A stretch of DNA of 63,924 nt, filler included, from Reclinomonas americana ATCC 50394 (taxonomy: Eukaryota), in NCBI GenBank assembly GCA_048213135.1. It is 8 parts of 8 records of this genome, joined end to end, with 100 filler letters (N's around TTAATTAATTAA, not from the genome) between each part and the next. Parts side by side here need not be neighbours in the genome. Positions count along the whole stretch, not along the records: positions 1 to 25,580 come from AFZH01022989.1; 7 more parts are not named here. One strand, given 5' to 3'. Positions 12,052 through 14,257 of this stretch are shown here, piece by piece; the stretch's first letter is position 1, and each line of letters starts with the position of its first letter. The position numbers were made by a program, and so were the translations under genes. The notes under the pieces are model-generated. The model searched no databases, had not been told where the DNA came from, and saw nothing but the letters and a program-made list of their open reading frames with translations.

Positions 12052-14257
12052 TCATTCAATGATCAATGTAAACTGCCCGCACGCCTCGCGCAGTGCACGC
12101 ATGGCATCGAACGCCTCCTGCGCCGTCGGCCGGTCGCGTCGCATGCTCATGCACCGCATGCCGAGCTCGAACATGGGCTCAGCAATGCGCGGCGTCCATT
12201 CCACGCCACCATCCACCAGCTCCATGGGGCGGAGGGAGGCTGGCGAGCGGTCCCATGCATACAGCCACTCGCGGACGATGGCCGTTGGCTTCCCGGTAAC
12301 CAATTGTATGAGAACTACGCCTGTGGCAAATACATCCGCCTCCGATTGTTTGCTCCTCGAGTGCATGTGGAGTGGGTCCATGTAGTCCAGCGTACCGGCG
12401 GCGGCGGTGGTCTGTCGGCGGAGAAGAGGGAGCTGAGGGGGAGTGTGGAGATAGAGATGGAGGAGCGAGAGTAGATGAACCTTGCCGTCGACACAGGATT
12501 GCGCGATGCCAAAGTCGCCGAGACACGGCTCCAGGCGGTGGTCAAGCAGTACGTAGGATGGCTTTATGTCGCGGTGCACCACCTCGTTCTGCGACAGAGC
12601 GAAGAGGAGGGGGAGATCGCATAGTATGAGAGACTGGCAAATGAGAAACGAAACCCCCGTATTCTAGAGGCAGCTTGCAGTTGCATGTTTATTCTTCATG
12701 CCCTTGCTCCCCCTGCAGCCGGTCTCGCATGGTCATCAGCTGCGCGGCGAGGTCTGTCACCTGGTCCCGTGTATCAGAGAGCAGAGAAGCGGTCCGGTCC
12801 CGCTCGGCCCGCAGTTCGGCGGCCAGTTGCTGTGGACCGTCGTTCCGCCGCCACCAGAGCGGCAGTGTGCTCAACTACAGCGACATCCTGTTGTGTGGCG
12901 AGCTGGTCGCGCTCTGCTCGCAGCCGCGTGATGAGTACCTCCTGCCATTCGACGGTGGCGCGCTCTGCCTGCAGTTGAGCGTCGAGTGCAGTGGACTTGG
13001 CCGACTCTTTGTGCAGTCGTGACTCGAGTTCAGCGACGCGTGCTTGGTCAGCAGCCGGTGGTGGTGGTGGCGGTAGTACTAAATGAGAGAAAGGGACGCA
13101 GTCAATATGCTGATAAGTAGTGCATCTCTACGATGATGGCAAACCTTGTGCAGGGTTGTCGCTGCTCCCACTCGGCGAAGGCACTGTGGATGAGGCCCCG
13201 TGATCATGAGTGCGCTGGCTTGCTGTTGGCGGAGTCAATTTAGAAACACATTTACAAGAATCGAGGGAAATTAAAATTCACACACCTCGCACTGTGTCGC
13301 CGCTCGCAGTCCGCTGCTCGTCTGGCGCGGGCGTGACAGAGCTCACGGCATTGGTACGTACTCCCGGCGGATACACTCCCAACACAACCACCTCCGGCGC
13401 CGGTGACCAGCCAGGTGCACGGTACGCAATCGCCGCTGCATCCTCCACCAGAAAGGCTCGCAGCACGACATCGACGAGGATGTAGTCGCGATCGTCGTCG
13501 TCTTCGTCACATAGGTCGCTGATGGCAGACACTGCCGACCGTGCAGCTGAGAGATCGAGTGCAGCAAGGCCGCGTGGCGTCGACCAGATCAGTACAGTGC
13601 TGTCATCACCACCACTCACGATGTGCTGGCCATCGGGTGTCACTGCCACTGTCCACACCCTACTCGCATGGCCTTCCAGTCGGCGCACCTCCTCACCACT
13701 TGCCACTGACCACACCCGTACAGTCTCGTCCCAACCGCTACTCATAATGTGCTGACCATCGGGAGTGAGAGCGACAGATGTCACCCCAGGGTGTTCCTCC
13801 AATCGTCGCACTTCTTCTCCACTCGCCAGTGACCACATTCGCACCATCTTGTCACCACTCCCACTCACGATGTGCTGACCGTCGGGAGTGACAGCAACAG
13901 ACAACACCGCAGATGTGTGTCCTTAAGTCGCACTTCCTCGCCACTCGCCAGCGACCACACTCTAACTGTTTTGTCCCGACCGCCACTCCCACTCGCAATG
14001 TCGGAGTGACGGCGACAGAATACACCTCTCCAGTGTGTCCCTCCAACTGACGCACTTCCTCTCCACTTGCCAGAGACCACACACGCACTGTCATGTCCGG
14101 ATAGTGACTCCCACTCACAACAACTGACCATCGGCAGTGACAGCGACAGACCACACCAGGCCAGTGTGTCCCTTCAGAACCTGCGTCAGCATACATTGTG
14201 AGGTGTACAGGTAGCAACAACAGACATGAACTCACACAAGAGCACCTTTGTTGCCAT
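12052..14257 (-). pseudogene. Decayed WD40 + coiled-coil + Pelle/IRAK-like kinase gene, copy 2
   Basis: ATG at 14257 gives MATK|intron|VLKGHTGLVWSVAVT. About 5 WD40 repeats follow, with frameshifts or deletions in the first ones. Then a Pro-rich linker and a coiled coil (~13050-12690, with a frameshift and TAA). The sequence then jumps directly to EVVHRDIKPSYVLLD...GDFGIA|TTAAAGTLDYMDP...DRPTAQE...GQFTLIIE*. Kinase subdomains I-VIa are absent. Confidence 0.8.

What the first reader, a model, noticed from the sequence alone, without database searches (positions are those of the whole stretch)
13585..14257. The kinase genes carry the same WD40 repeat family as the neighbouring NLR-like genes (shared repeat pool)
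Seen: the minus-strand repeats at 13585-14182 and 5435-5778 have the same consensus (SVAVTPDGQHIVSGSxDxxVRVWSLASGEEVRRLEGH) and near-identical DNA to the plus-strand NWD arrays. Known: fungal NWD loci exchange repeats, including with pseudogenes, under concerted evolution. Inference: either sensor repeats were grafted onto a kinase, or these inverted pseudogene repeats act as a donor reservoir for diversifying the NWD arrays. The inverted orientation could also promote recombination or dsRNA formation.
Basis: partly seen in the sequence, partly recalled or inferred. Interest (0 to 1): 0.7.

Follow-up and report, generated by a model that had tools for sequence, protein, structure and literature searches.

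The report
Dead kinase genes with NLR-type WD40 heads
Two decayed kinase genes carry WD40 repeats of the same family as the neighbouring NLR-like sensor genes, but the repeats are only about 75% alike in DNA and show no clear sign of recent swapping, so this looks like an old domain graft that has since died.

Summary
The repeats are real. Five minus-strand 126-nt WD40 units lie at 13549-14171 and about 2.5 at 5437-5768. They sit upstream of kinase remnants and share the 42-residue consensus of the plus-strand arrays (9 and 14 units).

"Near-identical DNA" is wrong. Kinase-side units are 72-76% identical to the plus-strand units, best pair 85.6%. That is the same as plus-strand units among themselves (75%; 61% at third codon positions).

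A unit tree is star-like and fully intermixed, so the kinase units are not a separate clade. However, maximum identity, longest shared runs, collinearity and a PHI test are at or near the expectation for independent draws from one profile. Recent exchange is therefore not shown.

Both kinase genes are pseudogenes, with frameshifting indels, a stop and complementary deletions of kinase exons. Their arrays are not kept intact, unlike Podospora NWD pseudogenes.

Best reading: an old tandem duplication of a convergent pair, a P-loop NTPase-pentapeptide-WD40 gene and a chimeric WD40-head/coiled-coil/RLK-IRAK-type kinase gene. The host is an intron-rich eukaryote and nothing shows it is a fungus.

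Earlier notes on other pieces of this genome describe NACHT-pentapeptide-WD40 genes and ankyrin-coiled-coil-kinase genes. The look-ups made returned no note of a WD40-headed kinase.

The parts
1..4037 (+). Gene A, cut by the window start: P-loop NTPase exons, a pentapeptide region (about 2530-2700), then WD40 and a C-terminal tail, with the stop at 4035-4037.
   Evidence: PF00805 E 1.7e-9; WD40 in 9 stretches, E 3.1e-106. NTPase hits (AAA_22, AAA_16, nSTAND_NTPase5) are below their curated cut-offs.
2733..3869 (+). Array A: 9 WD40 units of 126 nt (one of 129 nt).
4477..5360 (-). K1 kinase remnant. It holds the beta4-hinge-alphaE exons, the catalytic-loop exon (HHD in place of HRD, with a frameshift after it), two short introns, and a C-lobe with a second frameshift in a GTGGC repeat near 4630. 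No coiled coil is left.
   Evidence: Three-frame reading. Pkinase 26.7 bits, below the cut-off. 64% identical to K2 over 138 aa.
5437..5768 (-). K1 WD40 remnant: unit, half unit, unit. Lesions are +2, -1 and +7 nt indels and a TAG stop near 5455.
7003..11665 (+). Gene B, a multi-exon gene. It has an exon ending at a GTGCGG donor near 7066, a P-loop exon from 7422 (GWSGGGKT), a Walker-B exon (VLVLDGYDE) that ends at a GTTGCG donor at 7907, a pentapeptide region at 9530-9700, the WD40 array and a tail. No lesion was seen.
   Evidence: The exon joins are my reading of the sequence, not shown by RNA.
9737..11498 (+). Array B: 14 WD40 units of exactly 126 nt.
   Evidence: Pfam WD40 in 14 stretches, E 9.9e-166.
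12052..12663 (-). K2 kinase C-terminal half. HRD and DFG are present, and a probable in-frame intron of about 69 nt lies near 12410-12480. The N-lobe exons are missing: the coiled coil abuts the 3' part of the intron that precedes the catalytic-loop exon.
   Evidence: Pkinase E 1.4e-14, profile positions 114-258 of 263 only. Three-frame reading. The best solved relatives are SymRK, BAK1, BRI1 and BIK1; IRAK1 and RIPK3 rank lower.
12690..13080 (-). K2 proline run and coiled-coil exon. It follows a polypyrimidine/AG acceptor, has no Met in frame, and is broken by a frameshift near 12845.
13278..13548 (-). K2 tail after the last blade. It is an open frame with no family match and ends at a stop that overlaps a possible G|GTGTGT donor, which would be in frame with the coiled-coil exon.
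   Evidence: Only weak likeness to the tail of gene B (E 0.007) and none to that of gene A.
13549..14171 (-). K2 WD40 array, 5 units. Frame-breaking lesions: a 1-nt deletion near 14123, a 10-nt deletion near 14003, and a net -4 near 13927. In-frame changes: +6 twice and -3 once. Only the last three units share one frame.
14181..14257 (-). Possible first exon of K2 (ATG at 14257, four codons) followed by a 65-nt intron that ends in CAG at 14181, in frame with the first WD40 unit.
   Evidence: Sequence read. This is inference only.
59299..62718 (-). K3: an ankyrin-head, proline-run, coiled-coil kinase paralogue, multi-exon. It is the comparison that gives the architecture of the family.
   Evidence: Ank_2 E 1e-23. 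K2 kinase matches 59705-59914 at 47% over 76 aa. Pkinase E 0.001.

Best explanation
The locus is an old tandem duplication of about 7 kb that carries a convergent gene pair.

On the plus strand lies an NLR-like gene: P-loop STAND-type NTPase, pentapeptide repeats and a WD40 array. On the minus strand lies a chimeric gene whose N-terminal head is a WD40 array of the same repeat family. The head is followed by a tail, a proline run, a coiled coil and an RLK/Pelle/IRAK-type kinase. It has the build of the ankyrin-headed kinase in the same window, with WD40 in place of ankyrin.

The WD40 head evolved as coding sequence for most of its history. Both kinase copies then died. K2 lost its N-lobe exons and took frameshifts in its first units and in the coiled coil. 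K1 lost the tail, the coiled coil and most of the N-lobe, and is more decayed.

All 31 units of the four arrays look like roughly independent, equally old draws from one family profile with five hypervariable positions. Nothing shows that units moved recently between the kinase genes and the NLR-like genes. The only clearly recent exchange at the locus is homogenisation of the 5' NTPase halves of genes A and B.

Shown: the family identity of the units, the lesions, the identity levels and the lack of clustering. Inferred: the splice joins that make WD40 and kinase one gene, the direction of the graft, and the loss of function.
For: 1. One family. All four arrays match one DNA profile and nothing else in the window does. 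The same 42-residue consensus is seen throughout.
2. No separate clade. The tree has 27 inner branches, of which 17 are open and 2 starred. Labels A, B and K are unclustered: 15 changes against a shuffled mean of 13.5.
3. Old units. Among the A and B units, identity by codon position is 79, 84 and 61%. Only 1 of 253 unit pairs reaches 85% protein identity.
4. Once-coding head. K2 units 1-4 differ from the A/B consensus at 11.7, 8.1 and 26.8% of codon positions 1, 2 and 3. That matches A (12.7, 9.3, 24.1) and B (13.9, 10.7, 26.7). K1 is flatter and higher at 24, 19 and 40%.
5. Pseudogene status: the lesions are listed. The Pkinase match of K2 covers only profile positions 114-258 of 263.
6. One gene rather than two:
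   - The coiled-coil exon has no Met and starts at an acceptor.
   - A donor at the end of the tail frame is in phase with it.
   - An ATG plus a 65-nt intron leads in frame into unit 1.
   - K3 has the same order with an ankyrin head.
   - Homology to A and B stops at the edges of the array.
7. No recent exchange:
   - Maximum identity is 0.856, against a null mean of 0.844 and 95th percentile of 0.864.
   - No collinear diagonal exists. K2 versus A or B gives 0.733-0.791 on 17 diagonals, with an all-pair mean of 0.764.
   - PHI gives P 0.05-0.57 in 8 settings.
8. Mosaic age. A versus B is 97-99% identical over most of 201-1981 (one 200-column bin at 799-981 is 80%), 80-84% in the pentapeptide region and about 75% in the arrays. 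The kinase halves are 70-88% identical.
Against: - The join of WD40 and kinase into one transcript rests on splice sites that I read by eye. No RNA data could be had.
- K1 and K2 are copies of one another, so the adjacency counts only once.
- No intact WD40-headed kinase was found anywhere. The kinase search gave 38 hits, the best at 36% identity, and none lists PF00400. The notes look-ups were blank.
- There is a weak signal of non-random tract sharing:
   - Under a site-order permutation, 18 of 435 pairs have p<0.01 where 4.35 are expected.
   - 17 of 161 kinase-versus-NLR pairs have p<0.05 where 8 are expected, and the global P is 0.029.
   - Under the stricter column-wise null, the longest run (41 nt) has P 0.049 and the fifth-longest P 0.027.
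   Old or rare exchange is therefore not excluded.
- A and B arrays show no positional orthology. Third-position identity is 59-63% on every diagonal, against 70% in the flanking pentapeptide region. This could mean that units have turned over.
Confidence: 0.6

Rival explanations
1. There are two unrelated neighbours, not a fusion. The minus-strand WD40 block with its tail is the decayed 3' part of a separate WD40 gene. That gene could be an inverted fragment of an NLR-like gene or one of the stand-alone WD40-plus-tail genes noted elsewhere in this genome. It happens to lie upstream of a headless coiled-coil kinase pseudogene.
For: - The tail frame ends in a stop at 13278.
- The tail shows a weak likeness to the tail of gene B, 30% over 63 aa with E 0.007.
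- Earlier notes describe stand-alone WD40 genes with an orphan tail in this genome (not checked here).
- The adjacency is in effect a single observation.
Against: - No likeness to the tail of gene A, and six of the aligned residues belong to the last blade.
- Homology to A and B does not extend into the pentapeptide region upstream of the array.
- The coiled-coil exon has no start codon of its own and begins at an acceptor that is in phase with a donor overlapping the stop.
- The look-up of the WD40-plus-tail sequence among earlier notes was blank.
Confidence: 0.2
2. This is an active shared repeat pool. Units still move by gene conversion or unequal crossing-over among the NLR-like arrays and the kinase-side arrays, and the dead arrays serve as a reservoir of variants.
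For: - The units are fully intermixed in the tree.
- Positional orthology between arrays A and B is absent even though both flanks are homologous.
- There is a modest excess of long shared runs.
- Gene conversion does act at this locus, as the 97-99% block at 201-1981 versus 7192-8991 shows.
- The Podospora precedent (PMC1805685, passages).
Against: - No pair of units exceeds 86% identity, and maximum identity lies within the no-structure null.
- Third codon positions are only 61% identical for every class of pair.
- PHI is not significant.
- The kinase-side arrays keep 1-, 8- and 10-nt lesions and a stop that exchange with intact arrays would tend to erase.
- The units fail the 85% internal-conservation level that goes with concerted evolution in fungi (PMC4986451).
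Confidence: 0.1
3. This is an assembly artefact. The frameshifts are sequencing errors in a repetitive region and K2 is in fact an intact WD40-kinase gene.
For: The window has 14 runs of N, so the assembly is a draft. No reads could be obtained to check it.
Against: - The lesions include 8- and 10-nt deletions that are not in homopolymers, as well as loss of whole N-lobe exons.
- K1 and K2 carry different, complementary deletions.
- Arrays A and B, of the same repeat family, are read without a single frame error over 23 units.
Confidence: 0.04

Closest known systems
Podospora anserina NWD/HNWD family (HET-D, HET-E, HET-R): NACHT-WD40 genes whose repeats evolve in concert within and between loci, pseudogenes included (Paoletti et al. 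2007, PMC1805685, passages read; Chevanne et al. 2010, PMC2873952, search listing only)
   Same: - 42-residue WD40 units of one family are shared by several genes at a locus, dead genes included.
- The arrays follow a STAND-type NTPase.
- A few positions per unit are hypervariable. Here these are positions 4, 5, 7, 23 and 25, with 18% identity against 76% elsewhere.
- The number of units differs between paralogues (9 and 14).
   Different: - Podospora units reach up to 100% identity and about 85% protein identity. Here the mean is 75% in DNA and 69% in protein, and the best pair is 86%.
- Podospora pseudogene arrays stay open. Here they hold frameshifts and a stop.
- Here a pentapeptide region lies between the NTPase and WD40.
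- The second gene type here is a kinase with the WD40 at its N-terminus.
- The host is not shown to be a fungus, and RIP does not apply.
NACHT-pentapeptide-WD40 proteins of Mortierellomycota. Rows P0089 and P0147 (Mortierella alpina) and P0111 (Linnemannia) list PF00805 and WD40-type propeller families; P0089 and P0111 also list PF05729. Earlier notes on this genome named the same group.
   Same: Genes A and B have the order NTPase, pentapeptide repeats (PF00805 above its cut-off), then a long WD40 array.
   Different: - Identity is only 30-41%.
- The NTPase of A and B did not reach any curated Pfam cut-off when read exon by exon.
- I know of no kinase partner gene for that group. This is recall and was not searched.
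Ankyrin-coiled-coil-IRAK/RLK-type kinase genes of this same genome (earlier notes), represented in this window by K3 at 59299-62718
   Same: The order is repeat head at the N-terminus, proline run, coiled coil, then a kinase of RLK/IRAK type. K2 is 47% identical to K3 around the catalytic loop. The best solved relatives are plant receptor kinases; IRAK1 and RIPK3 rank lower.
   Different: The head is WD40 of the NLR-like family instead of ankyrin, and both copies are dead.
Bacterial Ser/Thr kinases fused to WD40 arrays. Rows with PF00069 and WD40-type propeller families include P0074 and P0144, named 'protein kinase' from Planctomycetes. PkwA of Thermomonospora is recalled, not looked up.
   Same: A kinase and a multi-unit WD40 array lie in one chain.
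   Different: In PkwA as I recall it, the kinase is N-terminal and the WD40 C-terminal. I did not check domain order in the rows. Here WD40 comes first, with a coiled coil between. There is no sequence closeness.

Membership tests
WD40 repeat (Pfam PF00400), same subfamily as the neighbouring arrays | Units match the WD40 profile and the DNA profile of the plus-strand units | tested here: met
   Pfam gives 3 stretches, E 6.6e-34, in 13278-13922. nhmmer gives E down to 2.5e-35 for K2 units and 1.5e-24 for K1 units.
Podospora-type concerted-evolution repeat pool (NWD/HNWD) | High internal conservation of units (about 85% protein identity or more, DNA up to 100%) | tested here: not met
   Mean protein identity is 69%, and 1 of 253 pairs reaches 85%. 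DNA identity has a mean of 75% and a maximum of 85.6%. The threshold is taken from PMC4986451.
Podospora-type concerted-evolution repeat pool (NWD/HNWD) | Units of different genes intermix rather than group by gene | tested here: met
   The tree shows no clustering of the labels A, B or K. The tree is star-like, however, so intermixing alone does not show exchange.
Podospora-type concerted-evolution repeat pool (NWD/HNWD) | Arrays of pseudogene members are kept intact by exchange with active members | tested here: not met
   K2 has 1-, 10- and net 4-nt frame-breaking lesions. K1 has indels, a half unit and a stop.
Podospora-type concerted-evolution repeat pool (NWD/HNWD) | Statistical traces of gene conversion between units | tested here: inconclusive
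   Site-order permutation gives global P 0.029, but that null is too lenient. The column-wise null gives P 0.049 and 0.027. PHI gives P 0.05-0.57.
Podospora-type concerted-evolution repeat pool (NWD/HNWD) | Units group by species rather than by orthologous gene; repeat number varies among isolates | not testable with these tools
   No genome, no relatives and no reads are held.
Podospora-type concerted-evolution repeat pool (NWD/HNWD) | A few hypervariable codons on the top face of the propeller | tested here: met
   Positions 4, 5, 7, 23 and 25 hold 7-10 different residues among 23 units, with 18% identity against 76% elsewhere. Positive selection was not tested, and the mapping to the top face is recalled.
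NLR-like STAND NTPase-pentapeptide-WD40 genes (genes A and B) | NACHT/STAND NTPase domain | tested here: inconclusive
   The P-loop GWSGGGKT and Walker B VLVLDGYDE are read in the sequence. Pfam hits are all below their cut-offs when searched exon by exon: AAA_22 at 26.2 of 27 bits, nSTAND_NTPase5 at 22.8 of 34, NACHT at 16.2 of 26.7. Exons were not joined.
NLR-like STAND NTPase-pentapeptide-WD40 genes (genes A and B) | Pentapeptide repeats between NTPase and WD40 | tested here: met
   PF00805 scores 34.7 and 37.5 bits against a cut-off of 20.2.
Protein kinase, RLK/Pelle/IRAK type (K1, K2) | Complete catalytic domain: glycine loop, VAIK lysine, HRD, DFG, C-lobe | tested here: not met
   K2 has HRD, DFG and the C-lobe, but only profile positions 114-258 of 263 and no N-lobe. 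K1 has HHD, two frameshifts and no glycine loop. The type was assigned from the best solved relatives SymRK, BAK1, BRI1 and BIK1.
Repeat-head/coiled-coil/kinase family of this genome (K3 type) | N-terminal repeat head, proline run, coiled coil, kinase, in this order on one strand | tested here: met
   The order is read in K2 and K3. The splice joins are inferred.

The most novel reading that the evidence does not exclude
In this protist, two receptor-like gene families draw on one family of hypervariable WD40 sensor modules: the NTPase-pentapeptide-WD40 genes and the repeat-head/coiled-coil/RLK-IRAK-type kinases. The dead pair here would be the fossil of a sensor-head swap (WD40 for ankyrin). 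Intact WD40-headed kinases may still work elsewhere in the genome, possibly paired tail-to-tail with an NLR-like gene that has the same kind of sensor.
Probability: 0.25. Interest if true: 0.55.

Novelty: new variant of a known kind. Interest (0 to 1): 0.3.

Why it matters
If it holds, the locus records a sensor module passing between an NLR-like chassis and a kinase chassis outside fungi, plants and animals. That adds to the picture of immune-type receptors as mix-and-match assemblies.

It also gives a counter-example to the Podospora model. Here a hypervariable WD40 family has units that are old and roughly equidistant rather than homogenised, and dead arrays that are not rescued.

As it stands the value is modest. 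Both kinase copies are pseudogenes, no function can be attached to them, and the main claim of a live shared pool is not borne out.

Tried and rejected
Only the 31 units of the window were used. Of these, the half unit K1_2 was dropped from the tree and the run tests. K2_5 and K1_1 were also dropped from the column-shuffle test. The PHI test used the 23 gap-free A and B units only.
- Sequencing runs: none was listed for 11900-14400 and no RNA holder was listed.
- Kinase relatives: 38 proteins at E<=0.001 among 1756 candidates, the best at 36% identity, none listing PF00400.
- Relatives of the gene B sensor half: 7657 hits among 8000 scored, all at 53% identity or less. These are generic WD40 proteins of bacteria and fungi, and one EukProt row at 51% lists PF00805. 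This did not place the organism.
- Earlier-notes look-ups by sequence, for the K2 kinase and for the K2 WD40 plus tail, were both blank. The look-up near this window was also blank.
- Tail homology between K2 and genes A and B: E 0.007 with B and nothing with A. This is too weak to use.
- Pfam on 63 further frames from 14605 to the window end, and on the frames upstream of gene B and of K1, found nothing next to the K genes. Hits were limited to the NHL, REJ and GPS gene, the ankyrin head of K3 and a weak Pkinase match in K3.
- Local inverted copy: I considered that the minus-strand arrays were copied from array A or B. This is rejected because no collinear diagonal stands out.
- Fungal RIP as an explanation for the decay was considered and dropped. 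Nothing indicates a fungus.
- Not run: structure prediction, the complex test, the atlas search and RNA-family tools. None bears on the question.
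Full report
**What is there**

The first 14.3 kb of the window hold a tandem duplication of a convergent gene pair. A self-comparison aligns 1-3862 with 7014-10863 (87% identity) and 4468-5047 with 12043-12616 (83%).

Each copy has a multi-exon gene on the plus strand. Its parts are:
- a P-loop NTPase: GWSGGGKT and a Walker B VLVLDGYDE, read. The Pfam hits AAA_22, AAA_16, nSTAND_NTPase5 and NACHT are all below their curated cut-offs when searched exon by exon;
- a pentapeptide-repeat region: PF00805 at 34.7 and 37.5 bits against a cut-off of 20.2;
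- an uninterrupted WD40 array: 9 units at 2733-3869 in gene A and 14 units at 9737-11498 in gene B.

The frame changes upstream of the arrays coincide with short introns that start GTGCGT, GTGCGG or GTTGCG. This agrees with earlier notes on other pieces of this genome. Nothing shows the organism is a fungus, and the database searches found no close relatives.

**The observation**

A DNA profile made from the 14 units of gene B finds units in only two further places, both on the minus strand:
- 13580-14171, five units, here called K2;
- 5437-5767, a unit, a half unit and a unit, here called K1.

Their translations follow the same 42-residue consensus. Each block lies upstream, on the same strand, of a protein-kinase remnant. 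For K2 this is Pkinase E 1.4e-14 at 12052-12663. For K1 it is 26.7 bits, below the cut-off, at 4573-5235. The two kinase remnants are 64% identical over 138 residues.

The statement that the DNA is near-identical is not right:
- K2 units average 72% identity to plus-strand units (76.4% for units 1-4), and K1 units 66%. The best pair, K2_3 with B8, reaches 85.6%.
- Inverted arms are 70-87% complementary over 63-204 nt, and at best 92% over 51 nt.
- The plus-strand units are no more alike among themselves. They share 75% in DNA, or 79, 84 and 61% by codon position, and 69% in protein. Only 1 of 253 pairs reaches 85%.

**The kinase genes are dead, in different ways**

K2 reads as follows:
- A possible start at 14257 (four codons) and a 65-nt intron lead in frame into unit 1.
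- Units 1-2 are broken by a 1-nt deletion (about 14123), a 10-nt deletion (about 14003) and a net 4-nt loss (about 13927). Units 3-5 and a 90-residue tail share one frame, which ends at 13278.
- A G|GTGTGT donor that overlaps this stop is in phase with an acceptor at about 13080.
- The next exon codes a proline run and a coiled coil. It has no Met of its own and is broken by a frameshift near 12845.
- The N-lobe exons of the kinase are missing altogether. The coiled coil abuts the remains of the intron before the HRD exon, and the Pfam match covers only profile positions 114-258 of 263.

K1 is different:
- It keeps the beta4-to-alphaE exons.
- It has lost the tail, the coiled coil and the start of the kinase.
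- It has HHD for HRD, two frameshifts, a TAG in its last WD40 unit and a half unit.

These lesions are not of the kind that sequencing errors make. The 23 units of A and B are read without a single frame error.

**What the kinase gene was**

The best solved relatives of the K2 kinase are plant receptor kinases (SymRK, BAK1, BRI1, BIK1); IRAK1 and RIPK3 rank lower.

A third paralogue, K3 at 59299-62718, has ankyrin repeats at its N-terminus, proline runs, a coiled coil and then the kinase. Earlier notes describe many such ankyrin-headed kinases in this genome. Those notes are leads that I checked only through K3.

K2 has the same order with WD40 in place of ankyrin. Homology between K2 and genes A and B is confined to the array itself. 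It does not reach the pentapeptide region, and the tails are at most faintly alike (E 0.007 with B, none with A).

K2 units 1-4 differ from the A/B consensus at 11.7, 8.1 and 26.8% of first, second and third codon positions. This is the pattern of the intact arrays: 12.7, 9.3 and 24.1% for A, and 13.9, 10.7 and 26.7% for B. They therefore evolved as coding sequence and died recently. K1 is flatter and higher, at 24, 19 and 40%.

I read this as a WD40 head of the NLR-like family grafted onto a coiled-coil kinase, followed by duplication and decay. The splice joins are inferred.

**Is there a shared, exchanging pool?**

- It is star-like. Of 27 inner branches, 17 are open and 2 are starred.
- The labels are unclustered. 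Seven kinase-side rows need 6 changes (shuffled mean 6.5), and all three labels together need 15 (shuffled mean 13.5).
- The only starred pairings that involve them are K2_1 with K1_3, and K2_4 with B3, A8 and B1.

Intermixing in a star tree does not show exchange, so I tested for tracts.

*Site-order permutation.* A GENECONV-style permutation of site order gives an excess of long shared runs. Of 435 pairs, 18 have p<0.01 where 4.35 are expected. Of 161 kinase-versus-NLR pairs, 17 have p<0.05 where 8 are expected. The global P is 0.029. That null ignores the clustering of conserved columns.

*Column-wise shuffle.* A null that shuffles letters within each column, run on 28 units, is stricter:
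- The longest run is 41 nt (A7-B1), followed by 40 nt (B8-K2_3, in the most conserved third of the unit). Its P is 0.049.
- The fifth-longest run has P 0.027.
- The maximum identity of 0.856 lies within the null, whose mean is 0.844 and 95th percentile 0.864.

*PHI test.* On the 23 intact A and B units only, so without any kinase-side unit, PHI gives P between 0.05 and 0.57 in eight settings.

*Collinearity.* No collinear register stands out. K2 units 1-4 give 0.733-0.791 on 17 diagonals against A or B, with an all-pair mean of 0.764. A against B gives 0.748-0.767 on six diagonals.

The units behave almost as independent draws from one profile. Old or rare exchange cannot be excluded. Two observations lean that way:
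- the borderline run statistics;
- the lack of positional orthology between A and B, with third-position identity of 59-63% on every diagonal against 70% in the flanking pentapeptide region.

Recent exchange is not seen, and the kinase-side arrays have not been repaired.

**Comparison with the known model**

In Podospora, WD units of the NWD family are "extremely conserved ... with up to 100% identity". They exchange within and between loci, and the arrays of RIP-inactivated pseudogenes stay almost free of stops. Four codons are under positive selection (PMC1805685, passages read). Fungal NLR repeats with high internal conservation are defined at 85% identity or more (PMC4986451, passages read).

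The present family shares:
- the NTPase-plus-WD40 build;
- sharing of units across gene types;
- five hypervariable positions (4, 5, 7, 23 and 25), with 18% identity against 76% elsewhere.

It fails on:
- the conservation level;
- the intact-pseudogene feature.

**A recent exchange that is visible**

Genes A and B are 97-99% identical over most of 201-1981 versus 7192-8991, introns included. One 200-column bin (799-981) is 80% identical and carries indels. Identity then falls to 92%, to 84-80% in the pentapeptide region, and to about 75% in the arrays and 70% in the tail. The intergenic DNA no longer aligns, and the kinase halves are 70-88% identical. The simplest reading is an old duplication whose NTPase halves were recently homogenised while the sensor halves were not.

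**Limits**

- No genome, reads or RNA were available.
- Exon joins are read by eye.
- K1 and K2 are copies of each other, so the adjacency counts as one observation.
- The supplements of the papers cited were not opened.

**Verdict**

The graft idea is plausible and is my best reading (0.6). The live shared pool or reservoir idea is not supported (0.1). The thing itself is a pair of pseudogenes, so interest is modest.

Noticed in passing
window 201-1981 versus 7192-8991: The NTPase-coding 5' halves of genes A and B, introns included, are 97-99% identical apart from one 80% bin at 799-981. The sensor halves downstream are 75-84% identical. This sharp step looks like a recent gene-conversion tract that stops before the pentapeptide and WD40 part.
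   Followed up: partly
window 59299-62718, minus strand: An ankyrin-head, proline-run, coiled-coil, RLK/IRAK-type kinase gene (K3) that looks intact and multi-exon. It is a paralogue of the dead K1 and K2 kinases, 47% identical around the catalytic loop.
   Followed up: partly
window 7907 (also 7466, 7685 and 8963): A GTTGCG motif sits exactly where the Walker-B exon of gene B must end (GAT|GTTGCGTGCC). This fits the shifted donor class described in earlier notes on this genome. The other three GTTGCG sites were not examined.
   Followed up: no
arrays 2733-3869 and 9737-11498: 14 of 23 WD40 units contain GTGCG[A/T/G]GT in the codons for TVRVW. This resembles the genome's usual intron donor. 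In K1, the last unit's other GTGCG motif (the EEVRR codons) abuts what looks like a kinase intron after the deletion.
   Followed up: no
window 43799-48081 versus 52765-57060: A second set of diverged segmental duplications, 75-83% identical over 0.6-2.5 kb, with no family match for their frames.
   Followed up: no
window 29782-40638, plus strand: Frames with NHL repeats, a REJ domain and a GPS motif, which suggests a large polycystin- or adhesion-receptor-like gene.
   Followed up: no
window 20745-23447, minus strand: A 901-residue open frame of Gly/Ser/Asn-rich repeats (GGG...N motifs) without any Pfam match.
   Followed up: no
window 25581-58295: Fourteen runs of 44 N, arranged in seven pairs. 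These are assembly gaps or masked stretches, several of them next to microsatellites.
   Followed up: no
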